42,447 bases of DNA from Candidatus Nomurabacteria bacterium GW2011_GWA2_40_9 (GTDB taxonomy: Bacteria > Patescibacteriota > Minisyncoccia > Phycocordibacterales > UBA9973), in assembly GCA_000993955.1 (NCBI GenBank), contig LBZW01000001.1:1-42447 (forward strand). Direction: 5' to 3'. Below, one piece after another: positions 1-38,019 of the stretch. The notes under the pieces are model-generated. The model saw only the letters and a list, made by a program, of their open reading frames with translations. It was not told the DNA's origin and made no database searches. Every line of letters starts with the position of its first letter. Position 1 is the stretch's first letter. A program made the translations under genes and the position numbers.

Positions 1-485
1 CAGGCATAGTTGCCTTGTACTCCTTTAGTTACTTTCCATGTGGTTTCATCGTAATGTTGAGCAAATTGTTTCTGGATTCTCACTTTCAGCCTTTCATATT
101 CAGGTCGTAAGCTATTTGCTTCCTTTTCAAGTATTTTCTGTATTTCGCCTTGTGAGATATTGATTTGATAGATGTCTTTGATATTGTCTTCAATTTGTTG
201 GTATGAAAGTCTAAGAATGATGGAAAGGTAGCAGATATATTTCCTGAGCTTTACTCCGATGATGCATCGAATTGATGGTAAAGATATTGCACTTCTCCAT
301 TTGTTACATTTTTCGCAGTAACCCTGCTCAACAGTATGCTTGATTGCTTCCTTTTGATTATCGAGGACTATGTCTTCCTCATAGTAGATGACGATCTTTT
401 TCCTAGTTAGTTTTGTATCACAGGTGGAACAGTTATCAATTGGATGATTTTCAATCCTAGTGATTTCAGCAGGTATTGGTCTTTG
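1..485 (-). pseudogene. IS66-family transposase fragment, N-terminally truncated and running off the left edge
   Basis: Absent from the ORF track (no ATG). The minus-strand frame is open from 485 to 1 and reads ..RPIPAEITRIENHPIDNCSTCDTKL..GYCEKCNKW..LSYQQIEDNIKDIYQINISQGEIQKILEKEANSLRPEYERLKVRIQKQFAQHYDETTWKV. This is a CxxC..CxxC zinc finger, then an HTH-like segment, then the H.DET entry into the DDE core, as in IS66 TnpC. The N-terminal coiled-coil part is missing and the frame abuts the RAYT cassette. Confidence 0.55.
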
Positions 486-542: not shown

Positions 543-1217
543 ATGCCACGCAATGCAAGAGTTGACGTAGGAGGAGAAATTTATCATGTAATCAATCGTG
601 CAAACGGTTGTCTTCAGATATTTAACAAAGATGAAGATTATGAACTATTTGAAGAATTACTTTTTGAAACAAAAGAACTTTTTCATATGCGTATATTAGC
701 CTATTGTTTGATGCCAAATCATTTTCATTTAGTCCTATATCCTAAAAATGACGGGGATATGGGTTTATTTATGCATCGATTGAGTAATTCTCATACCAGA
801 AAAGTGCACGCACTCACAAATACAAATGGTAGTGGGCATTTGTATCAAGGTCGCTACAAATCTTTTCTCGTAGATAAAGAAAATTATCTTTCAGCGATTA
901 TTAAATATGTTGAGCGTAATCCAGTGCGAGCTAAGCTCTCTAAACTTTGTGAGGATTGGAAGTGGGGTAGTGCTTGGCTGCGTATCAGTGGAAAACTTGA
1001 GCAACATAAATTACTTGATCAAAAATCTTTTGATCTTCCAGATAATTATATTAAATGGATTAATATTTCTGAAGATGAAGATTTATTGAAAAATATTCGT
1101 GTTTCAGTAAAAAAAGGTGTTCCATATGGTAAAGAAAAATGGGTGGATAATATGGTATTGAAATACAAACTTGAATCAACCCTAAGATCCCAAGGAAGAC
1201 CAAGGAAAGATAGATGA
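543..1217 (+). CDS. IS200/RAYT-like HUH tyrosine (Y1) transposase
   Basis: 224 aa. HUH motif in LMPNHFHLVLYP; conserved YHVINRAN N-terminus; GHLYQGRYKS; catalytic-Tyr helix IIKYVERNPVRAKL. This pattern matches COG1943 / Y1_Tnp REP-associated transposases. The gene is flanked by inverted repeats. Confidence 0.8.
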   Translation: MPRNARVDVGGEIYHVINRANGCLQIFNKDEDYELFEELLFETKELFHMRILAYCLMPNHFHLVLYPKNDGDMGLFMHRLSNSHTRKVHALTNTNGSGHLYQGRYKSFLVDKENYLSAIIKYVERNPVRAKLSKLCEDWKWGSAWLRISGKLEQHKLLDQKSFDLPDNYIKWINISEDEDLLKNIRVSVKKGVPYGKEKWVDNMVLKYKLESTLRSQGRPRKDR

Positions 1218-1945: not shown

Positions 1946-2908
1946 ATGAAGACAGAACAGAAGACAGTACACACAAGTGTTCTTTTAAAAGAAAGTATAG
2001 ACGGGCTGAATCTTAAGAAAAATCCCCAAAGCCTTGCTTCTGGAAATAATCTTGTAGTAATAGACGGTACATTTGGCGGAGGGGGACACAGTAGTGAGAT
2101 ATTAAAAAATTACCAAAATGTAAAAGTCATCGGTATAGATCAAGACAAGAGTGCATGGGAAAAGGCAAAAGATAAATTTGTAGGGTTGGAAGACAGGATT
2201 ACTTTTGTAAATGGAAATTTTCGAGACATAAAAGAAATTGTGGAAACTTCGGGTGTTGGACACCGAGATTCCAGGTGTCCAACACCCGAAGTAGATGGAG
2301 TATTACTTGATTTGGGACTCAGTTCTGATCAATTAGAGAATTCTGGTAGGGGATTTACTTTCATGAAAGATGAGCCGTTGTTTATGACTATGAAAGCAAA
2401 TCCAACATCTTCAGATTTAACGGCACAAGATATAGTAAATAATTGGAGCGAAGAAAATATAGCAAATATTATATATGGTTATGGTGAGGAGAGGTTTAGT
2501 AGAAGAATAGCAAGGCGGATAGTAGAAGCGAGGAAGGCAAAAGAGATAAAAACTACTTTTGAACTCGTAGAGATTATAAAAAATGCAGTGCCAAAAAAGT
2601 TTCAAAAAGGCAAGATAAATCCGGCTACAAAGACTTTTCAGGCATTGCGTATGGCAGTAAATGATGAATTGAATACTCTAGAGTCTGGGCTAAGTGGAGG
2701 GTTTGATATTTTAAAAAGCGGAGGCAGGCTGTCAGTCATATCATTCCACAGTCTCGAAGACCGGATAGTAAAGAATTTTTATAAAAAGAAAGTAGTAGAA
2801 GGCAAGGCAAAATTAATAAATAAGAAAATAATAACAGCAGGAAGTGAAGAATTGAAAACAAATAATAGATCAAGGAGTGCAAAATTAAGAATAATAGAGA
2901 AAATATGA
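1946..2908 (+). CDS. rsmH: 16S rRNA (cytosine1402-N4)-methyltransferase RsmH
   Basis: HTSVLLKESI, DGTFGGGGHS, VDGVLLDLGLSSDQLE, ISFHSLEDRIVK, NNRSRSAKLR. Start at the in-frame ATG 1946. Confidence 0.92.
   Translation: MKTEQKTVHTSVLLKESIDGLNLKKNPQSLASGNNLVVIDGTFGGGGHSSEILKNYQNVKVIGIDQDKSAWEKAKDKFVGLEDRITFVNGNFRDIKEIVETSGVGHRDSRCPTPEVDGVLLDLGLSSDQLENSGRGFTFMKDEPLFMTMKANPTSSDLTAQDIVNNWSEENIANIIYGYGEERFSRRIARRIVEARKAKEIKTTFELVEIIKNAVPKKFQKGKINPATKTFQALRMAVNDELNTLESGLSGGFDILKSGGRLSVISFHSLEDRIVKNFYKKKVVEGKAKLINKKIITAGSEELKTNNRSRSAKLRIIEKI
2024..2043. repeat. Palindromic element family C/G, single unit, in frame in rsmH
   Basis: CCCCAAAGCCTTGCTTCTGG is near-identical to the left arm of the atpG copy at 26613-26632. 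The preceding AAAATCCCCAAAGC also matches 26633-26646. Encodes NPQSLASG. Confidence 0.7.
2246..2292. repeat. Palindromic element family A, inverted dimer, in frame in rsmH
   Basis: ACTTCGGGTGTTGGACACC (2246-2264), 9-nt loop, GGTGTCCAACACCCGAAGT (2274-2292): a perfect 19-bp stem. Encodes ..TSGVGHRDSRCPTPEV.. just before the conserved DGVLLDLG. Confidence 0.9.
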
Positions 2909-7618: not shown

Positions 7619-7648
7619 TTTTACATAAAATTACACTTTATTTCTCGA

Positions 7649-7690
7649 TTACCTAATCAAAACGGTCGTAAAAGTTAGGTAATTTGTTTT
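7649..7690 (+). repeat. 42-bp hairpin repeat, copy 1
   Basis: TTACCTAATCAAAACGGTCGTAAAAGTTAGGTAATTTGTTTT. An 8-bp stem TTACCTAA/TTAGGTAA with an 18-nt loop, followed by a T-tract. Lies in the divergent rmuC / PaaX-like intergenic region. Confidence 0.9.
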
Positions 7691-7710: not shown

Positions 7711-8316
7711 ATGGGAATTTTGGAGAAAGAAATAAAAATTAAAGATAAACGCAAAAATATTCAGAAAATAATTTTAAATACTATTTTTGCAGCTGGGATA
7801 CTTGGTGTGATGGTAGTAGCACCAAATGTTTTATCAGTTATAAAACAAATAGAAAAAGGAATAAAAAGAAAAAAGAATTTAAAATATTCTATCAATAGTT
7901 CTTTTGTACGACTCAGAGAGAAAGGGCTTATTGAAATAATAGAAGTAAATGGGAAAAGAGTTGCAAGGATAACACAAAAAGGGGAGTCGAAGTTGGATTT
8001 CTTGGATAGACATAATTTTAAATTAAAAATTCCAAAGAAATGGGATGGTCGTTGGAGAGTGGTGATATTTGATATAAAGGAAAGCAAAAAGAGAATAAGA
8101 GCACTTTTGAGGGTTACGCTTTCGCAGATTGGCTTTATTAGATTGCAAAATAGCGTTTGGGTTTATCCATATGATTGCGAGGACTTGGTCTCATTACTTA
8201 AGGCAGATTTTAAAATAGGTAGTGAGATTTTATATATGATAGTAGAAAAACTTGAAAATGATTGGTCCTTACGTAAAAAATTTAATTTACCTAATTCTGA
8301 CGGTCGTAAAAGTTAG
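7711..8316 (+). CDS. Membrane-anchored wHTH + PaaX-C/Cas2-fold domain protein
   Basis: N-terminal TM (IILNTIFAAGILGVMVVAPNVL); winged-helix-like segment (SFVRLREKGLIEIIEVNGKRVARITQKGESKL); WDGRWRVVIFDIKESKKRIRALLRVTLSQIGFIRLQNSVWVYPYD, which matches the PaaX C-terminal / Cas2-like beta-alpha-beta-beta-alpha-beta signature. Start taken at ATG 7711. The last 10 codons and the stop lie inside repeat copy 2. Confidence 0.5.
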   Translation: MGILEKEIKIKDKRKNIQKIILNTIFAAGILGVMVVAPNVLSVIKQIEKGIKRKKNLKYSINSSFVRLREKGLIEIIEVNGKRVARITQKGESKLDFLDRHNFKLKIPKKWDGRWRVVIFDIKESKKRIRALLRVTLSQIGFIRLQNSVWVYPYDCEDLVSLLKADFKIGSEILYMIVEKLENDWSLRKKFNLPNSDGRKS

Positions 8317-8328
8317 GTAATTTGTTTT
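8287..8328 (+). repeat. 42-bp hairpin repeat, copy 2
   Basis: TTACCTAATTCTGACGGTCGTAAAAGTTAGGTAATTTGTTTT. Differs from copy 1 only at 4 loop positions. Lies between the convergent PaaX-like and exonuclease genes. Confidence 0.9.
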
Positions 8329-12188: not shown

Positions 12189-13700
12189 ATGCAAGAAAAA
12201 AATTCTGAAAAATATTACACCACCATCGGGCTTGAAATACACGCAGAATTGAAGACAACTACAAAGATGTTTTGTAGTTGTAGAAATAACCCTGATGAAA
12301 CAAAACCAAATACAAATATCTGCCCTGTGTGCATGGCGCACCCTGGGGCATTGCCTGTAATAAATAAAAAAGCAGTTGAGAATGTGATAAGAGTTGGTCT
12401 GGCTATCGGTGCAGAGATTGCAGATTTTTCAGAATTTGATAGAAAGAATTATTTTTATCCCGACATCCCAAAAGGGTACCAGATTTCTCAATATAAATAC
12501 CCAATAGTAAAAGGTGGCAAACTAGCTGGTATGGATATCACTCGTATTCACTTAGAGGAAGATACAGCGAATAACAAACACCTGTCGGGTGTTGGACACC
12601 CGGAAATTCAGGACGAGTATTCACTCATTGACTTCAATCGTGCTGGCGTGCCACTGATGGAGCTTGTGACCGAGGCGCATACTTTTGAGACGAGTGAGGA
12701 GGCAGCAAAAGTTGCGAGTAATTTTGCAAAAGAATATCAGCTCCTCCTGCAGTATATAGATGCCTCAGAAGCGAATATGGAAAAAGGGGAGATGCGAGTG
12801 GAAGCAAATGTATCTGTCTCACCTGATAAAGATAAGAAATGGACTGCCTATGTGGAAGTAAAAAATTTAAACTCTTTCAAGAGCGTAGAAAAAGCTATCA
12901 AATATGAAGTAGAGCGAATGATAGAACTTTTTGAAGAAGGCAAAGAGAGTGAAATAGTAAAAGAAACTCGTGGCTTCGATGAAGCAAAGCAGAGGACTGT
13001 GTCTCAGCGTAAAAAGGAATCCAGTGAAGACTACAGATACTTCCCAGACCCAGACCTACCAAAGATGAAACTTCATGAAGCGTTTGATTTGGAAAAAGTG
13101 AAGCAAGAGTTACCTGAGTTGCCCATGCAAAAGCGCGTGCGATATAAGAATGATTTTGGAATAAAAGATGAAGATATAGAAATTTATATAAATGATAAAG
13201 AGCTTGCAAAATGGTTTGAAGAAGTTGCAAATCTTTTGTTTTCTCCCCCTGCCAGAGGGGGAGTGTCCGAAGGACGAGGGGGTGGGAGTGAAAAAATTAA
13301 AACAGCATCAAATTATATCACATCAGATTATTTGGGTATAAAGAAGTTCCAGCCAGAGGCAAGGCCTCTGGCTGCGACGAATTTTGCCGAGCTTATAAAT
13401 TTGGTTACAGAAAATAAAATCTCTTCTCGCGCTACAAAGGACATACTTGCGATGATAGTGATAGATGATGCGTCTCCATTAAAAATAGCAACAGAGAAAA
13501 ATTTGTTACAAAAAAATGATGAAGGCGAACTAAAAGGTATAGTAGAAAAAATACTTGCAGAAAATCAGCAAGTAGTGGCTACATACAAAGGCGGTAAAGA
13601 AAATGCTCTTATGTCCCTAGTGGGTAAAATAATAAAAGAAACAAATGGCTCTGCCAATCCACAGGTGGTAATTAAATTATTAAAAGAGTTGATAAAATAA
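12189..13700 (+). CDS. gatB: Asp/Glu-tRNA(Asn/Gln) amidotransferase subunit B
   Basis: GLEIHAEL, CPVCMAHPGALPV, RKNYFYPD, HLEEDT, FNRAGVPLMELVTE, and a C-terminal YqeY-like tail. TATAAT at 12175-12180 lies 8 nt before the ATG. Confidence 0.95.
   Translation: MQEKNSEKYYTTIGLEIHAELKTTTKMFCSCRNNPDETKPNTNICPVCMAHPGALPVINKKAVENVIRVGLAIGAEIADFSEFDRKNYFYPDIPKGYQISQYKYPIVKGGKLAGMDITRIHLEEDTANNKHLSGVGHPEIQDEYSLIDFNRAGVPLMELVTEAHTFETSEEAAKVASNFAKEYQLLLQYIDASEANMEKGEMRVEANVSVSPDKDKKWTAYVEVKNLNSFKSVEKAIKYEVERMIELFEEGKESEIVKETRGFDEAKQRTVSQRKKESSEDYRYFPDPDLPKMKLHEAFDLEKVKQELPELPMQKRVRYKNDFGIKDEDIEIYINDKELAKWFEEVANLLFSPPARGGVSEGRGGGSEKIKTASNYITSDYLGIKKFQPEARPLAATNFAELINLVTENKISSRATKDILAMIVIDDASPLKIATEKNLLQKNDEGELKGIVEKILAENQQVVATYKGGKENALMSLVGKIIKETNGSANPQVVIKLLKELIK
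12585..12603. repeat. Palindromic element family A, single unit, in frame in gatB
   Basis: TCGGGTGTTGGACACCCGG: a 7-bp stem. Matches the reverse complement of the intergenic copy 32881-32899 at 18 of 19 positions. Encodes LSGVGHPE between HLEEDT and the conserved YSLIDFNR. Confidence 0.85.
13243..13283. repeat. Palindromic element family E, in frame in gatB
   Basis: CTCCCCC-TGCCAGA-GGGGGAG-TG-TCC-GAA-GGA-CG-AGGGGGT. Same 41-nt architecture as 15025-15065 on the other strand. Encodes SPPARGGVSEGRGGGS. Confidence 0.85.
13350..13374. repeat. Palindromic element family C, single unit, in frame in gatB
   Basis: CAGCCAGAGGC-AAG-GCCTCTGGCTG: an 11-bp perfect stem. Encodes QPEARPLAA. Confidence 0.9.
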
Positions 13701-14656: not shown

Positions 14657-16528
14657 ATGGAAGAAATTTTAAAAAAAGATTTAAAACAAGAAATACAAAA
14701 ATTTTTTAAAGGGGATGTGGAAGATGGGGAAGAGACTCTCTCAAAGTATTCTAGGGATGCGAGTATTTTTGAAATTCGACCACAGTTGGTGCTTTTTCCA
14801 AAAGATACAGAAGATGTGAAAAGTTTAGTAAAGTGGGTCAGTGAAAATTGCGGTAGGCAAGACCTACCACAATTATCTATTACTTGTAGATGTGCAGGGA
14901 CGGATATGTCAGGCGGTGCTATAGGTGAATCTATTATCTTGGATTTTACGAGGTACATGAATAAGTTGATTGCATTTTCTCCCCTCCTTGTGGAGGAGGG
15001 GGTAGGGGGTGGTGATTCAAAATTACCCCCTCGCCCTTCGGGCACTCCCCCTTATCAAGGGGGAGAGGAAAACACAATCACGGTTGAACCTGGTATGTTT
15101 TATAGAGATTTTGAAAAAATAACTTTATCTAAAGGAATGATTTTGCCTTGTTATACTGCATCGAAAAGTTTAAATGCTATGGGTGGTATGTATGGAAATA
15201 ATTCTGCCGGAGAGCGAACACTCAAATACGGCAAAACTGACAATTATATCTTGGAATCAAAAGTAGTTTTCGGAGACGGGAATGAATATGTGGTGAAGCC
15301 ACTGACGGAAGAAGAATTGAACAAAAAAATATCTCAGAATGATTTTGAGGGAAATATTTATAAAAATATTTATGAGCTTATACAAAATAACCAAGAAGAA
15401 ATAAAAAATGCCAAGCCAAAAGTACACAAAAATTCTGCTGGGTATTATGTATGGAACGTGATGGGAGTAAATACGCAGGATGTGAAAAATTCTGCCGTCT
15501 TTACCCTTCCCGGAGTACCGGGTGGGACCTACGCCGATCAGGATTTTTCACATCCTGCGTATTTTGATTTAAACAAACTTCTCGTCGGCTCTCAGGGCAC
15601 ACTTGGCATAGCGACAGAAATTACTTTTAAATTAGTGCCAAATCCAAAGTACTCAAAACTTGTAGCAGTATTTATGAATGACCTGGCACCACTTGGGAAT
15701 CTCGTAGATGAGATTTTGGAATTAAATCCAGAGACGTTGGAAGCTTATGATGACAAGACTATGAAGCTCGCTGTCAGGTTTTTCCCAGATTTTTTGAAAA
15801 ATAAAGGGTTTATAGGCATGATAAAATTTATGTGGAGCTTCTTACCAGAACTCGGGATGACGATTACGGGAGGATTCCCTAAGCTTATTCTTCTGGCTGA
15901 ATTTGCCGGAGAAAATAATCTCGAAGTGCAGATAAAATGCAAAGCCCTGCAAGAAAAAATAAAACATTTTAACCTAAAAGTTCATATCACACATTCTACT
16001 GCTGAATCAAATAAATATTGGGACATTAGACGGGAGAGTTTTGCATTACTTCGCAAGCATGTAGCCGGCAAGCACACTGCGCCATTCATAGATGACATCA
16101 TAGTTCGTCCGGAATTCTTGCCGAAGTTTATTCCCCAGTTGAATGAGATCTTGAGAAAATATGATCTGACTTATACTATCGCAGGGCATGCAGGAGATGG
16201 AAATTTTCACATCATACCGCTCATGAATTTCTCTAGGCCTGATATGGGGCAGATAATTATGGAGCTATCAGAAAAGGTATATGACTTGGTTTTGAAATAC
16301 GAAGGCTCTATCACAGCAGAGCACAATGACGGCATTATCCGTACGCCATTCTTACAAAAAATGTACGGTGAGAAAATAATAGAAATATTTAAAGAAATAA
16401 AAAACATCTTTGATCTAAAATATATTTTGAACCCTGGCAAAAAAGTCCCCATAGAAGATGGCCAAGGCTCTAAAGAATTTATATTATCTCATATATATAA
16501 GGAGCATACGACGGTACACAAAGTCTAA
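14657..16528 (+). CDS. FAD-binding oxidoreductase (GlcD / D-lactate dehydrogenase family)
   Basis: N-terminal FAD_binding_4-like region (RCAGTDMSGGAIG), LVGSQGTLGIATEITFKL, and C-terminal HAGDGNFHI..GSITAEHNDG motifs. Carries two inserted repeat elements. Confidence 0.8.
   Translation: MEEILKKDLKQEIQKFFKGDVEDGEETLSKYSRDASIFEIRPQLVLFPKDTEDVKSLVKWVSENCGRQDLPQLSITCRCAGTDMSGGAIGESIILDFTRYMNKLIAFSPLLVEEGVGGGDSKLPPRPSGTPPYQGGEENTITVEPGMFYRDFEKITLSKGMILPCYTASKSLNAMGGMYGNNSAGERTLKYGKTDNYILESKVVFGDGNEYVVKPLTEEELNKKISQNDFEGNIYKNIYELIQNNQEEIKNAKPKVHKNSAGYYVWNVMGVNTQDVKNSAVFTLPGVPGGTYADQDFSHPAYFDLNKLLVGSQGTLGIATEITFKLVPNPKYSKLVAVFMNDLAPLGNLVDEILELNPETLEAYDDKTMKLAVRFFPDFLKNKGFIGMIKFMWSFLPELGMTITGGFPKLILLAEFAGENNLEVQIKCKALQEKIKHFNLKVHITHSTAESNKYWDIRRESFALLRKHVAGKHTAPFIDDIIVRPEFLPKFIPQLNEILRKYDLTYTIAGHAGDGNFHIIPLMNFSRPDMGQIIMELSEKVYDLVLKYEGSITAEHNDGIIRTPFLQKMYGEKIIEIFKEIKNIFDLKYILNPGKKVPIEDGQGSKEFILSHIYKEHTTVHKV
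14979..15065. repeat. Composite palindromic insertion: E-prime unit (14979-15012) plus family E unit in reverse orientation (15025-15065), in frame in the FAD oxidase
   Basis: CTCCCCTCC-TTGT-GGAGGAGGGG-GTAGGGGGTGG resembles the atpD copy. The reverse complement of 15025-15065 is CTCCCCC-TTGATAA-GGGGGAG-TG-CCC-GAA-GGG-CG-AGGGGGT. Encodes SPLLVEEGVGGGDSKLPPRPSGTPPYQGGE. Confidence 0.85.
15469..15564. repeat. 96-nt MITE-like element with 22-bp perfect terminal inverted repeats, in frame in the FAD oxidase
   Basis: AAATACGCAGGATGTGAAAAAT (15469-15490) and ATTTTTCACATCCTGCGTATTT (15543-15564) are exact reverse complements. The centre carries the GC hairpin CCCGG-AGTA-CCGGG. 96 nt equals 32 codons. 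Confidence 0.85.
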
Positions 16529-21708: not shown

Positions 21709-21742
21709 AAACAAAAACACCTCGTACGAGGTGTTTTTGTTT
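21709..21742 (+). terminator. Intrinsic terminator after the RRM gene
   Basis: AAACAAAAACACCTCG-TA-CGAGGTGTTTTTGTTT: a 16-bp stem with a GC core, flanked by A and T runs (symmetrical). Confidence 0.8.
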
Positions 21743-21805: not shown

Positions 21806-21880
21806 GAGCATGTAGTTCAGTGGTAGAACGCTGTCCTGATAAGACAGAGGTCGATGGTCCGATTCCATCCATGCTCACCA
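21806..21880 (+). tRNA. tRNA-Ile (anticodon GAU) with encoded CCA and an unusual T-loop (C at position 55)
   Basis: Acceptor GAGCATG/CATGCTC, D-arm GTTC-AGTGGTA-GAAC, anticodon stem CTGTC/GACAG with loop CTGATAA, T-arm GATGG-TCCGATT-CCATC, ACCA. Confidence 0.85.
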
Positions 21881-22038: not shown

Positions 22039-22329
22039 ATGGAAACAGAAAATTCAAAAAACAATAGTGCTATTTGGAGACCTGTGATTCTTTTTTATGC
22101 CAAGACAACATCTTGGATTATATTTCCGTTGATTTTAGGAGTATTGCTTGCAAAATATATCAGCAAAACTACTAGCAGTCAGATTTTATTTTTTGTTATA
22201 ATAATTTTGGGTTTTATGATAACATGTTTTGGTATTTATAAAGAAGTGAAAGTATATAAAAGTACTTTAGATAAACAAGACCCACCTTCGCACAAGGCTA
22301 CGGATGGGCAAGTAAAAAATGGCAAATAA
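22039..22329 (+). CDS. Small 2-TM protein, AtpI/AtpZ-like by position
   Basis: 96 aa, two hydrophobic helices. Lies immediately upstream of and overlapping atpB. Confidence 0.4.
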   Translation: METENSKNNSAIWRPVILFYAKTTSWIIFPLILGVLLAKYISKTTSSQILFFVIIILGFMITCFGIYKEVKVYKSTLDKQDPPSHKATDGQVKNGK

Positions 22330-23221
22330 TTTAGAACATAATGGAGAGGTAGTAGAGGAGACAAGTCACGAAGTGACTATCTATGCAGAGCCGATTTTTC
22401 ATGTGGGTAATTTTGCTATCACAAACTCGCTTTTTACTACTTGGCTTGCAGTGCTTTTGATTGCTATATTTTCTCTCGTTATCCGATTAAATCTCAAAAA
22501 AGTTCCAGGGAAATTACAAAATATTTTTGAAGTTATGCTCGAGGGTGCTATGTCTCTCACTGATCAAGTCACAAATGACAGAAAAATAACGAATAAAATT
22601 TTTCCTTTAGTATTTTCTCTTTTTGTATTTATTTTAATAAATAATTGGATCGGGCTTTTGCCTTTTATTTCTGCTATTGGTTTTACGGTTGTTGAAAGTG
22701 GGCAAAATGTTTTTGTTCCTCTTTTTCGTGCGGGGACTGCGGATATCAACACCACCCTTGCTTTGTCGCTTATGATCATTGTCGCTTCAAATCTATTTGG
22801 CATACTCACTATCGGGCTCTGGAAACTTTTTAATAAATATGTTAATCTAAAAGCACTTGGTGAGATATTTACCAAGTTTAAAAAGGACAAGACTGTGGTC
22901 ATCGTATCTCCAATTTCTGTGTTTGTAGGGTTGCTTGAACTCATAGGAGAAATGGCAAAAATCGCATCGCTTTCTTTTCGTCTTTTTGGTAATGTTTTTG
23001 CAGGAGAAGTATTGCTCGCTTCTATGTCGGCAATATTTTTGTATATTTTACCGGGGCCGTTTTTGTTCCTTGAAGTTTTCATAGGACTCATTCAAGCATT
23101 GATATTTTCTTTGCTTGGGGCTGTGTATTTTACCATCGCAGCGCAGGATCATAATGAACACGAGGAGTATGAAACGGTGAGAGCTTTAGACTCTCATGAG
23201 AGTCTAAAGCTCTCACCGTAA
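22319..23221 (+). CDS. atpB: F0F1 ATP synthase subunit a
   Basis: Multi-TM, with the conserved Arg helix LSFRLFGNVFAGE. The C-terminal 15 aa are encoded by palindrome B. Confidence 0.9.
   Translation: MANNLEHNGEVVEETSHEVTIYAEPIFHVGNFAITNSLFTTWLAVLLIAIFSLVIRLNLKKVPGKLQNIFEVMLEGAMSLTDQVTNDRKITNKIFPLVFSLFVFILINNWIGLLPFISAIGFTVVESGQNVFVPLFRAGTADINTTLALSLMIIVASNLFGILTIGLWKLFNKYVNLKALGEIFTKFKKDKTVVIVSPISVFVGLLELIGEMAKIASLSFRLFGNVFAGEVLLASMSAIFLYILPGPFLFLEVFIGLIQALIFSLLGAVYFTIAAQDHNEHEEYETVRALDSHESLKLSP
23175..23218. repeat. Palindromic element family B forming the 3' end of atpB
   Basis: CGGTGAGAGCTTTAGACTCTC-AT-GAGAGTCTAAAGCTCTCACCG: a 44-nt perfect palindrome ending 0 nt before the TAA stop. 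Encodes TVRALDSHESLKLSP. Confidence 0.92.
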
Positions 23222-25968: not shown

Positions 25969-26916
25969 ATGACCGGAACAAAAGAAATTAAAAGAAGAAT
26001 AAAGAGTGTGAAGAACACAAAGAAGATAACCAAGGCGATGGAGCTAGTGGCTGCTTCGAAGATGAAGCGCGCAGTTTCTAAGACTCTCGCATCTCGTGTG
26101 TATGCAAATTATTCTTGGGAGCTTTTGACTTCTGTTTCAGCAAAACTTGAAGAGGTGACACACCCATTTTTTACTCCTGCCCGCAATGCTACGCATAGCG
26201 TTGCAGGTGGGGAAAATAAAACAGGTAAAACTTTGATAGTTCTCATCACTTCAAACAGAGGTTTGTGCGGAGCGTACAATTCTCAAGTCATCAAGAAAAC
26301 TATTTTAAAACTAAAATCTTTAGAAAATGAAGAAGTTGATTTCATAACCCTTGGCAAAAAAGGCGACGGCACTATGCGCAGAGTAGGGCAGAATATCGTG
26401 GCATCTTTTATTGAATTGCCAGATATTATTTCTTTATCTGATATCACAGCTGTGTCTAACTTTTTAACTAGTGAATATAAAATAGGAAATTATAAAAAAG
26501 TCTATGTGGCATATACAGACTTTGTATCAGCACTGACTCAAAAAGCACAGATCAGAAAGCTCTTGCCAGTGTCTAAAGAAGAATTGAAAGAAGTAATAGA
26601 CGGTCTAGATTCCCCCAAAGCCTTGCTTTTGGAAAATCCCCAAAGCAAGGCTTTGGGGTCAACATATTTGTTCGAAGGTGATATAAATAAACTCATAGAA
26701 ACGCTGGCAGAAAAACTAGTAAAGATGCAGATATATCAGATGTTGTTAGAGTCCAATGCTTCCGAACAGTCAAGCAGAATGCTTTCAATGAAAAATGCCG
26801 GAGACGCAGCAGGAGAGATGATCAATGATTTGACCTTGGTATTCAACAAAGCAAGACAGGCAAATATTACCAGAGAAATAAGTGAGATTAGTGCCGGTAT
26901 GGCAAGTGTGAGTTGA
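25969..26916 (+). CDS. atpG: F0F1 ATP synthase subunit gamma
   Basis: IKRRIKSVKNTKKITKAMELVAASKM N-terminus and NKARQANITREISEI C-terminus. Contains two inserted palindromes. Confidence 0.95.
   Translation: MTGTKEIKRRIKSVKNTKKITKAMELVAASKMKRAVSKTLASRVYANYSWELLTSVSAKLEEVTHPFFTPARNATHSVAGGENKTGKTLIVLITSNRGLCGAYNSQVIKKTILKLKSLENEEVDFITLGKKGDGTMRRVGQNIVASFIELPDIISLSDITAVSNFLTSEYKIGNYKKVYVAYTDFVSALTQKAQIRKLLPVSKEELKEVIDGLDSPKALLLENPQSKALGSTYLFEGDINKLIETLAEKLVKMQIYQMLLESNASEQSSRMLSMKNAGDAAGEMINDLTLVFNKARQANITREISEISAGMASVS
26176..26212. repeat. Palindromic element family D, in frame in atpG
   Basis: CCTGCCCGCAATGCT-ACGCAT-AGCGTTGCAGGTGGGG. Folds on the sense strand with 14 pairs, 3 of them G-U. 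Encodes PARNATHSVAGGE. Confidence 0.8.
26613..26658. repeat. Palindromic element family C/G, inverted dimer, in frame in atpG
   Basis: CCCCAAAGCCTTGCTTTTGG-AAAATCC-CCAAAGCAAGGCTTTGGGG: a 19-bp stem with one bulged T. Encodes SPKALLLENPQSKALG. Confidence 0.88.
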
Positions 26917-28549: not shown

Positions 28550-29029
28550 ATGTCAAAGCAATTAAAACTAAAAATAGTAACTCCAGAAAAATTGGTTCTA
28601 GAAGAGCTTGTTGATGAAGTGATTATCCCTACTACAGAAGGGGAGATTGCTGTGTTGCCTGAACACATACCTATAGTTGCTGGACTCAAATCAGGAGATG
28701 TTGTCGGCATAGTAAACGGCGAGCATATTCCTTTTGCTGTCGTTGGAGGGTTCGTAGAAGTGAAATATTTACCAGAGGCAAGGCCTCTGTCTGCCAGAGG
28801 CCTTGCCTCTGGTATTACTGAAGTAGTGATTCTCGCTGATTTTGCAGAACATGTATCAGAACTTTCTGATGATGCTGTAACAAAAGCAAAAGCTCGTGCC
28901 GAAGAACTACGCAAACAAGCAGAAAACAAAGAAGTAGTAGACTTTGAACACTTTGAGTCCGAACTCGAGCGCGCTCTAACCAGAGTCAAAATCGCTGACA
29001 AGTGGAGAACTAGAAAGTATAGGAAATAA
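28550..29029 (+). CDS. atpC: F0F1 ATP synthase subunit epsilon
   Basis: LKIVTPEKLV..VIIPTTEGEIAVLPEHIPIVAGLKSG.., GGFVEV.., and a C-terminal helical hairpin. Carries a 15-codon palindrome insertion. Confidence 0.88.
   Translation: MSKQLKLKIVTPEKLVLEELVDEVIIPTTEGEIAVLPEHIPIVAGLKSGDVVGIVNGEHIPFAVVGGFVEVKYLPEARPLSARGLASGITEVVILADFAEHVSELSDDAVTKAKARAEELRKQAENKEVVDFEHFESELERALTRVKIADKWRTRKYRK
28770..28814. repeat. Palindromic element family C, inverted dimer, exactly 15 codons, in frame in atpC
   Basis: TACCAGAGGCAAGGCCTCTG-TCTGC-CAGAGGCCTTGCCTCTGGTA: a 20-bp perfect stem. Each arm contains the gatB unit CCAGAGGC-AAG-GCCTCTG. Encodes (Y)LPEARPLSARGLASG(I). Confidence 0.92.
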
Positions 29030-29794: not shown

Positions 29795-31777
29795 TTACAG
29801 CAAATTTTCTGGATCTATCAGCACTCTAAAATTAGAAGATATTTTATTTAAAGACAAAAGTTTTCTATAGAGGTCTTCCTCGATAGAAGCAGATGCAGAG
29901 AGTATAGGCAAAGACCATTTTTTAGGATCTGCTTTTATTAACATATTTACTGTATTTTTGTCTTTACTACTCTTTCTGAAACCACTGTAAAATACAGGGT
30001 TGTAATCTTTGAATATTTCACTCAAATTTTCTTTTGTCTTAGATGAATCTGTGTTGCTTTCTAAATAAGTAACTTTGATAAATCTAGAATATGGGGGATA
30101 GAGCATAGATTTTCTGTCTTCGAGTTCAGTCCTGATAAATTCTAATAGATTACTATTTTTTATGGCAAGCAGTGCCGAGTCTTTGTCGTTCTTTGTTTGG
30201 ATTATCAATTTATTTTTTGTTTTAGAAAGCATCAGGAGTATGAGTTGAATTATTTTTTCACTCATTTTAAAATTTGGGATACTCCAGAGTGAATCAAAAG
30301 AAGCAACGATACAGGTGTCTATTTGGTTTTTCATATAAAAAAGTGCTATCTCTGTGCCTATGAGTATAGTATTTTCTCCTGTCTCATATTCTGTAATTAT
30401 CTTTAGAGCACCCTTGGCTGTCTTTGCTGTGTCTTTGTCTAGTTTTAATATTTTAATGTGATCTAATTTTTCTTTTTTTAATTCTTCATACACTGTATCT
30501 ATACCTATGCCGAGTGGTACCAGATTCCAACTGTCGCATTTTACACATTTAACCTTCGTATTTTTGCTTGTGCCACATCTGTTGCAGACAAATACTCTCT
30601 TTTTTTTGTCTGGAGAGTGGTGCAGGACAACAGGAGTGGAGCATTCATCACAGCTTACTGTTTCTCCGCAATCTCTACATATAGTATAAGTAGCCAGCCC
30701 TTTTCGAAGAGAGAAAATAAAAACTTTCTCTTTTTGTTCTAGAGCACTTTTCAATTCTGCTATAGTTTCAGTCATCAACACCTTAAATTTGTTTTTTCTA
30801 CTCAATATTTCTATTTTTCCATCAAAAGAAATACGAAAAGACATGGGATGAACTTCCCCTAGTCCGTCTATCTCACGCCTAGCTATACTTTCAAAGCGTA
30901 AGAGGCTATCCGCCAAGATAAATTTTGCATTTATTTTAGAAGCAAAAATTTCAGTAAAAATTCGTAAATCAAAGTAGGGTTTGGCTATCATTTTATACCC
31001 ATTTCCGCTCTCGTGTTCTAAAATAATTGTTTCTATATCTCTTCTGTCTATAGATAGGTATGGGGCAGTACCGATAATCAAAATTGGATGCTCTTCTTTT
31101 ATGATATTTTCTATCTTTTCCATTTGTTTCTTTGCACTATACCCTCCATGGATAGAAATAGTAAATTGTTCAATACCCTTGGACAGGTACCCATACCAGT
31201 CGTCTATGTCATTTTTAGTGGGTAGTACTATAAAAACTGATTTTTTTTTAGCAAAATTACTTCTGATTAGGATTTTATAATAATCTATACGTTCTTCCAG
31301 TTTAGCTTGAAACAATAATTTTTCATTTTTTATCAGTGAGAGCTTTAGACTCTCTCTAGAGTCTAAAGCTCTCACTGAAAGTTCTTCTTTGTTTTGTTCA
31401 TTTTTTAATAGCTTGTTTTTAATTAATTCAGCAAATCTATCGTATTCTTCTTTTAAAATATTTGGGATGAGAGATGTGACCCCGTCGCTGTTGTTTTGAA
31501 CAAAATATTTACTACACAAAAACACAGATTCTAGAAATTCAGATTTAAAAATAGAGCCCTCTTTTATACTAAGTATTTTCTTTAGATTAAAATCCATGTC
31601 TTTTATATTTCTCTTTGCGTCAGTTACGTCTTCGGTAAAGACTACTAACCCCAACATGTTTTTATTGCGGAGAGATATAGTAACGATACTCCCATTTGGT
31701 ATGTCTTTTATTGAAAAATAGGTTAAATTTTCTTTCCAAAGTCCTTTTCTGAATGGGATTACCGTAACTATTTTCAT
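29795..31777 (-). CDS. priA: PriA-like primosomal protein N' with degenerate ATPase motifs
   Basis: PriA architecture with the Cys-rich Zn module (CRDCGETVSCDECSTPVV..CNRCG..CVKCDS). The expected Walker A, DExH and motif VI positions read LFQAKLEERIDYY, ILEHESGNGYK and LLMLSKTKNK. Confidence 0.75.
   Translation of the reverse strand: MKIVTVIPFRKGLWKENLTYFSIKDIPNGSIVTISLRNKNMLGLVVFTEDVTDAKRNIKDMDFNLKKILSIKEGSIFKSEFLESVFLCSKYFVQNNSDGVTSLIPNILKEEYDRFAELIKNKLLKNEQNKEELSVRALDSRESLKLSLIKNEKLLFQAKLEERIDYYKILIRSNFAKKKSVFIVLPTKNDIDDWYGYLSKGIEQFTISIHGGYSAKKQMEKIENIIKEEHPILIIGTAPYLSIDRRDIETIILEHESGNGYKMIAKPYFDLRIFTEIFASKINAKFILADSLLRFESIARREIDGLGEVHPMSFRISFDGKIEILSRKNKFKVLMTETIAELKSALEQKEKVFIFSLRKGLATYTICRDCGETVSCDECSTPVVLHHSPDKKKRVFVCNRCGTSKNTKVKCVKCDSWNLVPLGIGIDTVYEELKKEKLDHIKILKLDKDTAKTAKGALKIITEYETGENTILIGTEIALFYMKNQIDTCIVASFDSLWSIPNFKMSEKIIQLILLMLSKTKNKLIIQTKNDKDSALLAIKNSNLLEFIRTELEDRKSMLYPPYSRFIKVTYLESNTDSSKTKENLSEIFKDYNPVFYSGFRKSSKDKNTVNMLIKADPKKWSLPILSASASIEEDLYRKLLSLNKISSNFRVLIDPENLL
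31333..31378. repeat. Palindromic element family B, in frame in priA
   Basis: TCAGTGAGAGCTTTAGACTCT-CTCT-AGAGTCTAAAGCTCTCACTGA: a 21-bp perfect stem. The core GTGAGAGCTTTAGACTCT is identical to the atpB copy. On the minus strand it encodes SVRALDSRESLKLSL. Confidence 0.92.
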
Positions 31778-31861: not shown

Positions 31862-32875
31862 ATGAGTATATTTTCTAGAAAATTAGGGATAGATTTAGGG
31901 ACTGCAAATACCTTGGTTTTTCTACCTGGAAAGGGGATAGTCCTCAACGAGCCTTCCGTGGTTGCAGTCTCAGAACAAGACAATAAAATACTGGCTATTG
32001 GCTTCGAAGCAAAAGACATGATAGGCAAGACTCCAGAATTTATTATCACATATTGTCCGATGAAAGATGGGGTAATAGCAGATTACAGAGTGACTGAGGC
32101 AATGCTCCGCTATTTTATAAATAAAGCCCTTGGTAAATATAATATTTTCAAACCAGATGTGATGGTGTCTGTGCCAGCGGGGGTTACTTCTACAGAACGT
32201 CGGGCAGTGGTAGAGGCTGCTATTCGTGCTGGAGCAAAGAACGCTTATGTAGTCAAAGAGCCAATTCTCGCAGCTATAGGGGCTGGAATACCGATCTATG
32301 AATCAAAGGGTCACATGGTGGTGGACATCGGTGGAGGGACGACCGACGTGGCCGTGATCGCTCTAGGGGGAATCGTGGCATCTACCTCTGTAAAATGCGC
32401 AGGGACAAAGATAGACCAAGCCATAGCAGACTACATTAAAAAAACATTCAACCTCGCCATCGGTGACAAGACTGCCGAAGAAGTAAAAATAAAAATCGGC
32501 GCAGCTGTGCCACTTGAAGAAGAACTTCGGGTCACGATAAAAGGACGTGATTTTATTCAAGGGCTTCCACGTTCTGCTCAAGTCGGCACAAATGAGATAG
32601 TAAAAGCCATAGACCCTGAATTAAAGCAAATCATAAAAGCTATCAAAGATGTATTGGCCGAAACGCCACCAGAGCTTGCTTCTGACATCATAGACCATGG
32701 CATTATAATGACTGGTGGTTCTTCCTTGTTGCGTAACTTTCCAGATTTAGTTTACAGAAAAACAGGAGTAAAAGCAGTTCTTGCAGAAGACGCACTTTAC
32801 TGTGTAGCCAAGGGTACAGGTATAGCCCTCGAGCATTTGGATGTTTACAAAAAAGCAGTCATAAGTAAAAAATAA
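31862..32875 (+). CDS. mreB: Rod shape-determining protein MreB
   Basis: GIDLGTANTLVF, MVVDIGGGTTDVAV, and the remaining actin-fold motifs. Start probably at ATG 31862 (MSIFSRKLGIDLG). Confidence 0.95.
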   Translation: MSIFSRKLGIDLGTANTLVFLPGKGIVLNEPSVVAVSEQDNKILAIGFEAKDMIGKTPEFIITYCPMKDGVIADYRVTEAMLRYFINKALGKYNIFKPDVMVSVPAGVTSTERRAVVEAAIRAGAKNAYVVKEPILAAIGAGIPIYESKGHMVVDIGGGTTDVAVIALGGIVASTSVKCAGTKIDQAIADYIKKTFNLAIGDKTAEEVKIKIGAAVPLEEELRVTIKGRDFIQGLPRSAQVGTNEIVKAIDPELKQIIKAIKDVLAETPPELASDIIDHGIIMTGGSSLLRNFPDLVYRKTGVKAVLAEDALYCVAKGTGIALEHLDVYKKAVISKK

Positions 32876-32880
32876 GATTG

Positions 32881-32899
32881 TCGGGTGTCCAACACCCGA
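32881..32899. repeat. Palindromic element family A, single unit, intergenic between mreB and holB
   Basis: TCGGGTGTCCAACACCCGA, 5 nt after the mreB stop. Matches the reverse complement of the gatB copy at 18 of 19 positions. Confidence 0.85.
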
Positions 32900-32914
32900 T
32901 GAGCTAATAAATAT

Positions 32915-33649
32915 ATGGATATTTTAGAACATCTAGATATAGACAACCTACATCATGCATATTTGATAGAAGATAGAAGTGCTGAAGCCTTGCCCGTGAT
33001 TCTAGAATTTTTAGCAAACTCTAATATAAACATACTAAATAATCCAGACTTTTTTCATATTTCTGCTGATTCTATAAAAATAGATGATGCACGACGACTC
33101 AAAGCCATGGGAGCTGATAGGGGATTTGATGGAACTGTAGGAAGTAAAAAGATTTTTATAATTTCTACGAACAGTTTTTTATTGGAAGCACAAAATACTT
33201 TACTCAAGATGTTTGAAGAGCCTATAGAACACACACATTTCTTTTTAATTATGCCGGATACAGACAGTCTGCTTGCTACTTTCAAATCCAGATTTTATTT
33301 TATTTCTTCAAATTCAAATATAAATAATATAAATACCGAATTAAAAGAAGCAGAGAAATTTGTGTCTATGACTTTGCCACAGAGAATTGAATTTATAAAA
33401 GAATTGATAACTGAAGTAGAGGATGAAGAAGACTCTATCTCTGTAGACTCTGCTCGCACAAAAGCCCAAAAGTTTTTAAATGCTTTAGAAACAGTACTAC
33501 ACCAACAAATGTCAAAGGCGGGCTTTGACACAAAAAACAACCTGACTTTCTTTCAGCAAATTTTCCAAGTCCGCAAATATCTCCGCCAACCCGGGTCTTC
33601 TACAAAGAGTTTAATGGAGTCTGTGGTGTTATCTGTACCATATTTTTAA
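32915..33649 (+). CDS. holB: DNA polymerase III delta-prime-like clamp-loader subunit
   Basis: HHAYLIE.., KIFIISTNSFLLEAQNTLLKMFEEPIEHTHFFLI matches the AAA+ box VII / sensor region of HolB. No intact P-loop. Confidence 0.7.
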   Translation: MDILEHLDIDNLHHAYLIEDRSAEALPVILEFLANSNINILNNPDFFHISADSIKIDDARRLKAMGADRGFDGTVGSKKIFIISTNSFLLEAQNTLLKMFEEPIEHTHFFLIMPDTDSLLATFKSRFYFISSNSNINNINTELKEAEKFVSMTLPQRIEFIKELITEVEDEEDSISVDSARTKAQKFLNALETVLHQQMSKAGFDTKNNLTFFQQIFQVRKYLRQPGSSTKSLMESVVLSVPYF

Positions 33650-36813: not shown

Positions 36814-36869
36814 TCCACATGTCGGACATAGGGTCGGTCATTTTTTTTAGTCCCTATGTCCGACATGTG
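36814..36869. repeat. 56-nt palindrome (family F) in the perM-cysS spacer
   Basis: CCACATGTCGGACATAGGG (36814-36832), 18-nt loop, CCCTATGTCCGACATGTGG (36851-36869): a perfect 19-bp stem. Each arm contains the near-palindrome ATGTC(G/C)GACAT. Confidence 0.9.
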
Positions 36870-36876
36870 GTCTTAT

Positions 36877-37890: not shown

Positions 37891-37933
37891 GATGATTATA
37901 TTATATCAGAATATTTTTATAAAAAAAGCAAAT

Positions 37934-37967: not shown

Positions 37968-38019
37968 TATTTTAAATACAAAAATTTGCATAAAAAACAG
38001 TTTTTGCTATACTTTAGTT

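What the first reader, a model, noticed from the sequence alone, without database searches (positions are those of the whole stretch)
2246..2292. Family A: CGGGTGTTGGACACCCG unit as a 19-bp-stem inverted dimer in rsmH, a monomer in gatB and a flipped monomer after mreB
rsmH 2246-2292 has a perfect 19-bp stem. gatB 12585-12603 carries one unit, and 32881-32899 (intergenic, 5 nt after the mreB stop) matches its reverse complement at 18 of 19 positions. Both coding copies are read as SGVGH. The same unit therefore occurs in monomer, dimer, coding and non-coding states, which is what a mobile or recombining hairpin module would produce. The intergenic copy may double as an mreB transcript-end hairpin, although no T-tract follows it.
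Basis: seen in the sequence. Interest (0 to 1): 0.66.

Follow-up and report, generated by a model that had tools for sequence, protein, structure and literature searches.

The report
Mobile hairpin repeats inside essential genes
A 17-base GC-rich hairpin is scattered through this small groundwater bacterium's genome, partly as in-frame inserts in the housekeeping genes rsmH and gatB. It is most likely a REP/REPIN-type miniature mobile element, because in related genomes the same hairpin flanks a single-strand (Y1) transposase gene.

Summary
The unit CGGGTGT-TGG/CCA-ACACCCG occurs at three unlinked sites, where shuffles give none. The sites are a perfect 19-bp-arm inverted doublet in rsmH, one unit in gatB, and one flipped unit 5 nt after mreB.

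Both coding copies are lineage-specific inserts in loops that most orthologues keep short. The gatB "monomer" is a decayed doublet: an 86%-identical relative keeps the opposite half.

In five related Nomurabacteria/Paceibacterota contigs the same hairpin sits just upstream of, inside and just downstream of a 219-aa HUH/Y1 transposase gene. That gene lies in a conserved neighbourhood. Across 71 homologous loci the hairpin sequence differs between loci but matches within a locus.

This is the REP/REPIN–RAYT pattern, here in Patescibacteria, with three differences:
- The doublets are tiny (about 47 nt).
- Most copies lie inside genes, in frame.
- A copy of the hairpin lies inside the transposase gene itself.

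Loop orientation flips at orthologous sites.

The cognate transposase is not in the window, and no transposition was shown. A transcript-end role for the mreB copy is untested. Verdict: a real feature and a new variant of a known kind.

The parts
2246..2292 (.). Family-A inverted doublet (REPIN-like) inside rsmH. Left arm 2246-2264 holds the TGG unit, the spacer is 2265-2273, and the right arm 2274-2292 holds the CCA unit. It is translated in frame as T-SGVGH-RDSR-CPTP-E.
   Evidence: Searches show the sequence and fold; it adds 9 residues to the loop length found in 62 of 121 orthologues; the AlphaFold model gives mean pLDDT 62 for residues 101-110, against 91 for the blocks on either side.
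12582..12612 (+). Decayed Family-A doublet inside gatB, CTGTCGGGTGTTGGACACCCGGAAATTCAGG. The left unit is intact (12586-12602). The spacer and the first bases of the lost right unit follow (ATTCAGG). Read as LSGVGHPEIQ.
   Evidence: The relative L121 has CTGTCGGGT-ATTCAGGTGTCCAACACCCGACAG at the same place, so it keeps the other half; 100 of 121 orthologues have a 4-5 residue loop here, against 13 in the window.
32878..32902 (.). Family-A singlet with a CCA loop on the + strand and an extended 11-pair stem. It lies in the 39-nt spacer between mreB (stop 32873-32875) and the holB-like gene (start 32915).
   Evidence: -9.2 kcal/mol, z = -5.05; an orthologous copy sits after mreB in L104, where the surrounding DNA is 72.6% identical; no T-tract on the sense strand.

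Best explanation
Family A is a REP/REPIN-type non-autonomous hairpin element of a Nomurabacteria-like (Patescibacteria/CPR) bacterium.

**Shown**
- The basic unit is a 7-bp stem with a 3-nt loop, usually extended to (C/T)GTC-GGGTGT-TGG-ACACCC-GAC(A/G).
- The unit of insertion appears to be an inverted doublet of about 47 nt: two units around a 9-10-nt spacer. It looks like the two hairpin ends of a Y1 (HUH, IS200/IS605-superfamily) transposase gene with the gene removed.
- The rsmH copy is an intact doublet. The gatB copy has lost one half by an in-frame deletion. The copy after mreB is a singlet.
- Loop orientation (TGG versus CCA) flips in place over time.

**Inferred**
- The RAYT-like transposase recognises the hairpin on single-stranded DNA and mobilises doublets in trans.
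- Copies that land in genes persist only where they are in frame, free of stop codons (the unit has none in any of the six frames) and in a tolerant surface loop.
- The cognate enzyme is encoded elsewhere in this genome.
For: **1. The unit is specific to this clade.** In a scan of 185,579 species genomes, 22 of 24 low-GC hits carried the TGG/CCA loop. All of those were Nomurabacteria, Paceibacterota or other Patescibacteria MAGs. Only 11 of 106 hits in high-GC genomes did.

**2. The unit flanks a Y1 transposase gene.**
- In L067, L011, L004, L111 and L126 the unit lies about 20-40 nt upstream of, inside, and about 5-17 nt downstream of a 219-aa ORF.
- That ORF matches Pfam Y1_Tnp above its cutoff. 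Its only NCBIfam hit is the REP-associated tyrosine transposase model. Its HUH motif (PNHFH) and catalytic Tyr are invariant.
- The flanking genes are homologous across these species, so the locus appears vertically inherited, as RAYT genes are.

**3. Hairpin and transposase co-vary.** Among 71 homologous metagenome loci:
- 54 share a 10-mer or longer between the upstream and downstream flanks.
- 39 share one between the upstream flank and the CDS interior.
- 32 share one at all three places.
- Mismatched-locus controls give 2.5, 4.1 and 0.

**4. Insertion polymorphism in orthologues.**
- The rsmH doublet occurs in at least 4 separate clades of an RsmH tree, interleaved with insert-free orthologues.
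- The gatB insert is confined to the window's lineage.

**5. Doublet decay.** The window and L121 keep reciprocal halves of one 19-bp-arm doublet in gatB.

**6. The conserved entity is DNA, not peptide.** Three reading frames are used and non-coding copies exist.

**7. The stem is maintained.** The outer stem of the rsmH doublet shows compensatory changes (ACTT/AAGT, ATTT/AAAT, TGCA/TGCA). Flank pairing extends 5 or more positions beyond the core.

**8. Match to the literature.** These features fit published REPIN properties: doublets as the mobile unit, singlets as decayed remnants, two doublet configurations, and long palindromic singlets (PMC3337134; bioRxiv 10.1101/2021.07.10.451892).
Against: - No Family-A-flanked transposase lies in the 42-kb window, and the syntenic locus is not in the window either.
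- The window's own Y1 gene (543-1217) is flanked by a different repeat.
- The transposase scores far below the curated RAYT cutoff (19-21 bits against 80). Its closest solved relative by sequence is ISDra2 TnpA rather than E. coli TnpA-REP.
- The genome-wide copy number is unknown. The window holds only 3 sites (4 units) in 42 kb.
- No clean empty-site/filled-site pair at high identity was found for Family A, so the target site and insertion chemistry are unresolved.
- Repeated occupation of the same RsmH and GatB loops by different palindromes could reflect in-situ replacement rather than independent transposition.
- Classical REPINs are about 100 bp and almost exclusively extragenic.
- No biochemical or population evidence of movement was obtained.
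Confidence: 0.75

Rival explanations
1. The hairpins spread and stay uniform by recombination only. Template switching or gene conversion between short palindromes would do this without any transposase. The association with the Y1 gene would then be incidental, or the Y1 gene merely another colonised site.
For: - Loop flips occur at orthologous sites with identical flanks. Examples are the Family C unit in gatB and the unit inside the transposase CDS.
- Perfect arms are maintained through compensatory changes.
- The same protein loops hold unrelated palindromes in other lineages.
Against: - Recombination does not explain how the same 17-mer first reached unlinked loci that lack flanking homology.
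- It does not explain the conserved geometry of upstream, internal and downstream hairpins around Y1 genes.
- It does not explain why each Y1 homologue has its own hairpin sequence.
Confidence: 0.1
2. The units are host-selected structural signals, such as transcript-end or mRNA-stabilising hairpins, attenuators or protein-binding sites. On this view they are kept for function and are not mobile elements.
For: - The copy after mreB is conserved at the orthologous place in L104, although the surrounding DNA is only 72.6% identical.
- Many related copies sit within a few nucleotides of stop codons.
- REPs in other bacteria are known to affect mRNA stability (PMC3733652).
Against: - Two of the three window sites lie in the middle of essential ORFs, where a terminator would be harmful.
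- No T-tract follows the mreB copy on the sense strand.
- Presence is patchy among orthologues.
- No Rfam family matches.
- A secondary, co-opted role is compatible with the main explanation and is not excluded.
Confidence: 0.08
3. The unit is a genome-wide recognition word, for example a DNA-uptake sequence or a restriction/partition site, enriched by biased uptake or repair.
For: - Patescibacteria depend on imported nucleic acid (general knowledge, not tested here).
- Uptake sequences in Neisseria often occur as inverted pairs (from memory).
Against: - Density is low, at 3 sites in 42 kb.
- The unit is tightly linked to Y1 transposase genes, and each transposase homologue has a different hairpin.
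- Many unrelated hairpin families coexist in one 42-kb window.
Confidence: 0.04
4. Selection acts on the peptide SGVGH, which would be a functional protein motif shared by RsmH and GatB.
For: Both window coding copies use the same reading frame.
Against: - The same DNA is read as CPTP in the rsmH right arm, VSNTR in gatB of L121, and SGVQHP in the transposase.
- It also occurs untranslated.
- The insert has low model confidence.
- Most orthologues lack it.
Confidence: 0.01

Closest known systems
REPIN-RAYT systems of Pseudomonas and Enterobacteria (Bertels & Rainey 2011; Nunvar 2010; Ton-Hoang 2012)
   Same: - Short GC-rich palindromic units.
- Inverted doublets that fold into one long hairpin.
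- Singlets that are decayed doublets.
- Two doublet configurations, TGG-CCA and CCA-TGG, comparable to TT-AA and AA-TT.
- A HUH/Y1 transposase gene flanked by its own units, at a syntenic locus.
- Each transposase homologue has its own hairpin sequence.
   Different: - The doublet is about 47 nt with a 9-nt spacer, against about 100 nt.
- There is no GTAG tag.
- Most copies in this window lie inside genes and in frame.
- The transposase carries a third copy of its cognate hairpin inside its CDS.
- The protein fails the curated RAYT model (19-21 bits against a cutoff of 80).
- The host is Patescibacteria, for which I found no REPIN/RAYT report.
CGTC-tagged REPs and intragenic REPs (Di Nocera et al. 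2013, PMC3733652), including Rickettsia RPE-4/RPE-6 and the Opitutus terrae intragenic REPs
   Same: - A (C/T)GTC motif at the 5' edge of most units.
- Stems of 8-9 bp.
- Mostly head-to-head dimers.
- Singlets and dimers inserted in frame in housekeeping genes, adding one to three dozen residues.
   Different: - Here the GTC is paired with GAC instead of being an unpaired tag.
- The loop is 3 nt, not 4-5.
- The first stem pairs are G-C, not A-T.
- CGTC repeats were reported as not associated with transposase genes, whereas these are.
Rickettsia palindromic elements, RPE-1 type (Ogata et al. 2000; reviewed in PMC10969869)
   Same: Palindromic repeats inserted in frame into unrelated conserved protein genes, at positions compatible with the protein fold.
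   Different: RPE-1 elements are about 100-150 bp, encode a conserved peptide, and have no known transposase.
IS200/IS605 TnpA elements (IS608, ISDra2)
   Same: - The same enzyme superfamily. The best solved-structure match by sequence is ISDra2 TnpA, E = 0.004.
- Hairpin ends recognised on single-stranded DNA.
   Different: - The ends of IS200/IS605 elements are not inverted copies of one hairpin.
- Those elements are multi-copy and horizontally mobile.
- Here the gene sits in a conserved neighbourhood and the hairpins are dispersed alone.
Mitochondrial GC clusters and double-hairpin elements of fungi (from memory, not checked here)
   Same: Small GC-rich double hairpins that spread through AT-rich genomes, including into coding regions.
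   Different: They are organellar and have no associated Y1 transposase.

Membership tests
REP/REPIN-RAYT system | Associated gene encodes a HUH/Y1 (IS200-like) transposase with a HUH motif and a catalytic Tyr | tested here: met
   Pfam PF01797 scores 25.8 and 24.5 bits against a cutoff of 23 for L067 and L126; L011 scores 20.6, below the cutoff. PNHFH and the Tyr of Y-x-x-x-N are invariant in alignment A1.
REP/REPIN-RAYT system | Protein belongs to the curated REP-associated tyrosine transposase family (NCBIfam NF047646) | tested here: not met
   It is the only NCBIfam hit, but at 19.2-21.4 bits against a cutoff of 80. E. coli TnpA-REP (4er8) scores only E = 0.9.
REP/REPIN-RAYT system | Transposase gene flanked on both sides by its own palindromic repeat, in inverted orientation | tested here: met
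   L067 has a 24-nt perfect inverted repeat, TGTCGGGTGTTGGACACCCGACAG, 17 nt upstream and 12 nt downstream of the gene. L011 and L004 show the same arrangement; in L126 the two flanking units have the same loop orientation. 54 of 71 homologous loci share a 10-mer or longer between flanks, against 2.5 in controls.
REP/REPIN-RAYT system | Repeat also dispersed through the genome away from the transposase gene | tested here: inconclusive
   The window has 3 sites and no cognate gene. Solo copies occur in L094, L114, L119, L025, L061, L082, L104 and L116.
REP/REPIN-RAYT system | Inverted doublets (REPINs) that fold into one hairpin, with singlets as decayed remnants | tested here: met
   The rsmH doublet. 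A doublet in L114 at 2412-2450. Reciprocal half-deletions in gatB of the window and L121.
REP/REPIN-RAYT system | Repeats almost exclusively extragenic | tested here: not met
   Two of the 3 Family-A sites lie inside ORFs. So do about 11 of roughly 16 strong GC hairpins in the window, where the coding fraction is 0.89.
REP/REPIN-RAYT system | Transposase gene single-copy, at the same locus across related species (vertical inheritance) | tested here: inconclusive
   Flanking genes are homologous among L067, L011, L004, L111, L126 and L127. Copy number per genome could not be counted.
CGTC-tagged REP superfamily (Di Nocera 2013) | Unpaired terminal CGTC/TGTC tag, 8-9 bp stem starting with A-T pairs, 4-5 nt loop, short CCA-like tail | tested here: not met
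   (C/T)GTC precedes most of the 39 copies, but it is paired with GAC(A/G). The loop is 3 nt and the stem starts with G-C pairs (criteria).
Intrinsic (Rho-independent) terminator | GC-rich hairpin followed by a T-tract on the transcribed strand | tested here: not met
   The scan of 32600-33100 finds terminator-like sites only on the antisense strand, and those have weak tails.

The most novel reading that the evidence does not exclude
Patescibacteria may carry a large, previously undescribed clade of RAYT-like Y1 transposases. In this clade the gene holds its cognate hairpin at three co-evolving positions: the 5' flank, inside the coding sequence at about +160 to +200 nt, and the 3' flank.

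Their miniature doublets would routinely colonise surface loops of essential proteins. There they would be flipped, halved or replaced in place. This would make REP-type elements a main source of loop-length and sequence variation in these reduced genomes.

The hairpin inside the transposase CDS could be an autoregulatory or processing site.
Probability: 0.35. Interest if true: 0.7.

Novelty: new variant of a known kind. Interest (0 to 1): 0.55.

Why it matters
- **Wider host range.** REPIN-RAYT systems are described as extragenic, roughly 100-bp elements, mostly of Proteobacteria. Finding the same logic in ultra-small CPR genomes extends both the host range and the form of these elements. Here it runs in miniature, mostly inside genes, with the hairpin also written into the transposase's own coding sequence.
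- **Annotation and phylogenomics.** It explains a recurrent nuisance in CPR work: odd, lineage-specific GC-rich loops in conserved proteins such as RsmH and GatB.
- **A ready-made comparison set.** Dozens of transposase-hairpin pairs are now available for studying how a single-strand transposase and its DNA hairpin co-evolve.

Tried and rejected
**Searches that found nothing**
- Rfam gathering search of the whole window: only two tRNAs, and no known RNA family at any hairpin.
- Viral contigs: no exact copy of the unit.
- Literature searches for palindromic repeats, REPIN or RAYT in Patescibacteria/CPR: no relevant paper.

**Attempts that failed**
- Extending the window through its own contigs. 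Public contigs of the same organism end at about the same places, with an IS66 fragment on the left, so genome-wide counts and the cognate transposase could not be reached.
- Looking for the syntenic transposase neighbourhood in the window. It is absent.

**Hypotheses rejected or left unproven**
- That the window's own Y1 gene (543-1217) mobilises Family A. It is only 32% identical to the Family-A-flanked enzyme and is flanked by a different, non-hairpin inverted repeat.
- Peptide-level selection. Three reading frames are used.
- A terminator reading for the intragenic copies.
- An assembly artefact. Independent assemblies agree.

**Side lead**
- A 43-nt difference from other assemblies at 38425/38426 proved to be an AT-rich deletion between direct repeats, unrelated to the hairpins.

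Full report
**Observation**

- Positions 2246-2264 and 2274-2292 are perfectly complementary 19-nt arms around a 9-nt spacer.
- As single-stranded DNA this folds at -24.1 kcal/mol, z = -7.7.
- The exact unit CGGGTGTTGGACACCCG is at 12586-12602 on the + strand and at 32882-32898 on the - strand.
- With up to three mismatches the only further matches are the two rsmH arms. Dinucleotide-preserving shuffles give none.
- The unit is itself a small hairpin with a 7-bp stem and a 3-nt loop. A "flipped" unit therefore differs only in the loop, TGG versus CCA.
- Both coding copies are read SGVGH.
- The third copy starts 5 nt after the mreB stop, in a 39-nt spacer before a DNA polymerase III delta'-like gene.
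- Independent assemblies of the same organism, 99.9% identical, carry the doublet unchanged.

**Host and specificity**

RsmH and GatB homologues place the window in Nomurabacteria/Paceibacteria-type Patescibacteria from groundwater. I scanned one genome per bacterial species for CGGGTGT-YSR-ACACCCG.
- High-GC genomes carry all eight possible loops, which is what chance would give.
- In low-GC genomes 22 of 24 units have TGG or CCA. All of these are Patescibacteria MAGs.

The unit is therefore a real, clade-restricted element.

**The coding copies are insertions**

*RsmH.* Among 121 RsmH sequences, the loop between NF and DG has 15 residues in 62 of them and 24 in the window.
- The SGVGH...CPTP insert appears in 8 sequences. 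On a tree built without the loop, these fall into at least four clades interleaved with insert-free relatives.
- Their DNA keeps a long perfect or near-perfect palindrome. The outer stem differs by compensatory pairs: ACTT/AAGT in the window, ATTT/AAAT in L206, TGCA/TGCA in L207, and two G·T pairs in L208.
- The same loop holds unrelated palindrome-like inserts in other lineages.
- In an AlphaFold model the insert is a low-confidence stretch (mean pLDDT 62) between a helix and a strand that both score about 91.

*GatB.* In GatB, 100 of 121 orthologues have 4-5 residues after NNKH, and the window has 13. The 86%-identical relative L121 has CTGTCGGGT-ATTCAGGTGTCCAACACCCGACAG at the same place. 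The window has CTGTCGGGTGTTGGACACCCG-GAAATTCAGG-ACGAG.
- Both derive by one in-frame deletion each (15 and 18 nt) from a single doublet: CTGTCGGGTGTTGGACACC-CGGAAATTCA-GGTGTCCAACACCCGACAG.
- That inferred doublet has the same 19-bp arms and nearly the same spacer as the rsmH doublet.
- The doublet therefore looks like the inserted form and the "monomer" like its remnant.
- The retained half in L121 is read VSNTR, and the rsmH right arm is read CPTP. All three frames are in use, so the conserved object is DNA, not peptide.

**Link to a transposase**

In four Nomurabacteria/Paceibacterota MAGs (L067, L011, L004, L111) and one metagenome contig (L126), three units lie at conserved spacing around a 219-aa ORF. 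One is about 20-40 nt upstream, one is inside the ORF (read SSGV[Q/G]HP), and one is about 5-17 nt downstream.
- The protein matches Pfam Y1_Tnp above its cutoff.
- Its only NCBIfam hit is the REP-associated tyrosine transposase model, though far below that model's cutoff.
- It has invariant HUH and Tyr motifs.
- Its closest solved relative by sequence is ISDra2 TnpA.
- Genes flanking the ORF are homologous across these species. The locus therefore appears inherited vertically rather than hopping.

**Generality**

A metagenome scan with an alignment of these proteins found 554 relatives among the first 600 candidate stretches, and 80 loci were kept. In the 71 loci with enough flank:
- 54 share a 10-mer or longer between the upstream and downstream flanks.
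- 39 share one between the upstream flank and the CDS interior (+120 to +260).
- 32 share one at all three positions.
- Segments paired across different loci give 2.5, 4.1 and 0.

The hairpins have 7-17-bp stems and 3-5-nt loops. They differ from locus to locus and often begin ACTT(G/A)G...C(C/T)AAGT, like the rsmH arms. One transposase paired with one hairpin sequence is the hallmark of REP-RAYT systems (PMC3337134). The third, internal copy is something I have not seen described.

**Anatomy of the unit**

I oriented 39 distinct copies alike.
- The consensus is (C/T)(G/T)TC-GGGTGT-TGG-ACACCC-GA(C/A)(A/G).
- Watson-Crick pairing of the flanks holds in 37, 29, 27, 23 and 22 of 39 copies for the first five positions outside the core. 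It then decays to background.
- Position -3 (G or T) and position +3 (C or A) are each split about evenly, consistent with GTC...GAC and TTC...GAA subtypes. The rsmH copy is of the second subtype.
- Long palindromic singlets such as the one after mreB in L104 (CCGTCGGGTGTCCAACACCCGACGG) resemble those Bertels and Rainey derive from central excision of a doublet.

**Loop flipping**

Orthologous copies with identical flanks differ only in loop orientation.
- The unit inside the transposase CDS is CCA in L067 and L011 and TGG in L004 and L111, in gene orientation.
- A unit of another family in gatB is AAG in the window and CTT in L121.

This points to in-place inversion of the loop, for example by template switching within the hairpin. 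It changes the encoded residue (G/Q or R/L).

**The wider picture in the window**

The window holds 16 strong GC-containing hairpins, where shuffles give 1.9. About 11 elements lie inside ORFs, and the coding fraction is 0.89. They belong to several families with the same hairpin-of-hairpins build. Comparison with L121, at 85.7% nucleotide identity, shows hairpin-bearing indels in both directions.

**What is not shown**
- The cognate transposase is not in the window, nor is its syntenic neighbourhood.
- The window's own Y1 gene is a different subfamily with different flanks.
- Genome-wide copy number, target site and actual movement remain untested.
- The mreB copy is conserved in L104 but has no sense-strand T-tract. 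A transcript-end or stabilising role is possible but untested.

**Comparison with known systems**

The system works like a REPIN-RAYT pair, and in its intragenic habit it resembles Rickettsia RPEs and the intragenic REPs of Opitutus (PMC3733652; PMC10969869). It fails three membership criteria:
- the curated RAYT protein model,
- extragenic location,
- the unpaired GTAG/CGTC tag.

I therefore file it as a new variant of a known kind rather than as a member. No paper in the searched library links REPINs or RAYTs to Patescibacteria.

Noticed in passing
L126-L205, L067, L011, L004, L111 (related loci): In this family of Patescibacterial Y1 transposases the cognate hairpin recurs inside the coding sequence, about +160 to +200 nt from the ATG. 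It co-varies with the two flanking hairpins: 32 of 71 loci share a 10-mer at all three places, against 0 in controls. The window's own Y1 protein lacks this roughly 25-residue segment.
   Followed up: partly
window 543-1217, with 492-509, 1226-1243, 1275-1292 and 1200-1297: A Y1_Tnp gene (Pfam E = 4e-14) lies just upstream of mraZ-rsmH. It is flanked by inverted copies of AAGGGGACAGCCACCATT, which is not a hairpin, and its right end carries a 49-nt tandem duplication. The relative L125 lacks the gene but has one solo copy of the repeat after lysS (L125:674).
   Followed up: partly
window 1-480 (- strand): The left edge appears to be a fragment of an IS66-family DDE transposase (PF03050 on the equivalent gene in L212). 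Public contigs of this organism break near here.
   Followed up: no
window 23174-23219 and 31333-31378: Family B: two 45-46-nt perfect doublets, GTGAGAGCTTTAGACTCTC / GAGAGTCTAAAGCTCTCAC. One forms the 3' end of ORF 22319-23221. The other lies inside the minus-strand ORF 29795-31777. Both read VRALDS-ESLKLS.
   Followed up: partly
window 28770-28814 and 13350-13374: Family C, CCAGAGGC-AAG/CTT-GCCTCTGG. A 20-bp-arm doublet lies inside ORF 28550-29029 and a singlet lies in gatB (read PEARPL). The gatB singlet has the opposite loop in relative L121, with identical flanks.
   Followed up: partly
window 26613-26658 and 2022-2040: Family D, CCCAAAGC-CTT/AAG-GCTTTGGG. A doublet lies inside ORF 25969-26916 and a degenerate singlet lies near the N-terminus of rsmH (NPQSLAS). 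The rsmH model has mean pLDDT 71 for residues 21-30, the block that holds this singlet.
   Followed up: no
window 13221-13300, 14981-15001, 15045-15065: Further GC-rich hairpins sit inside genes. One is CTCCCCCTGCCAGAGGGGGAG plus a G-rich tail in gatB; this is a 39-nt insert absent from L121, read FSPPARGGVSEGRGGGS. Two related CCCCTCC/CTCCCCC hairpins lie in ORF 14657-16528.
   Followed up: partly
window 36815-36870: An intergenic doublet, CCACATGTCGGACATAGGG ... CCCTATGTCCGACATGTGG, with an 18-nt T-rich spacer. It lies between two minus-strand genes.
   Followed up: no
window 7637-7688, 8275-8326, 37922-37973: A 52-nt repeat in three copies, containing the hairpin TTACCTAA...TTAGGTAA around GACGGTCGTAAAAG. 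One copy also has a counterpart in L121 and L125. It is AT-rich and unlike the GC hairpin families.
   Followed up: no
window 21709-21742: A perfect 34-nt palindrome, AAACAAAAACACCTCGT/ACGAGGTGTTTTTGTTT, about 65 nt upstream of a tRNA gene (21806-21877).
   Followed up: no
window 38425/38426: Two other assemblies of the same organism (L209, L210) have 43 extra AT-rich bases here, bounded by the direct repeat AGAGAATTA. The window therefore carries a deletion in a short divergent intergenic region.
   Followed up: yes
RsmH and GatB homologues P0014, P0027, P0040, P0042, P0045, P0047, P0080, P0129, P0140, P0240 and others: The same two protein loops carry many unrelated inserts in other Patescibacteria (for example KNFLE...FLKN and ENSKDFCAF...). 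They look like translated palindromes, which suggests hotspots or in-place replacement.
   Followed up: no
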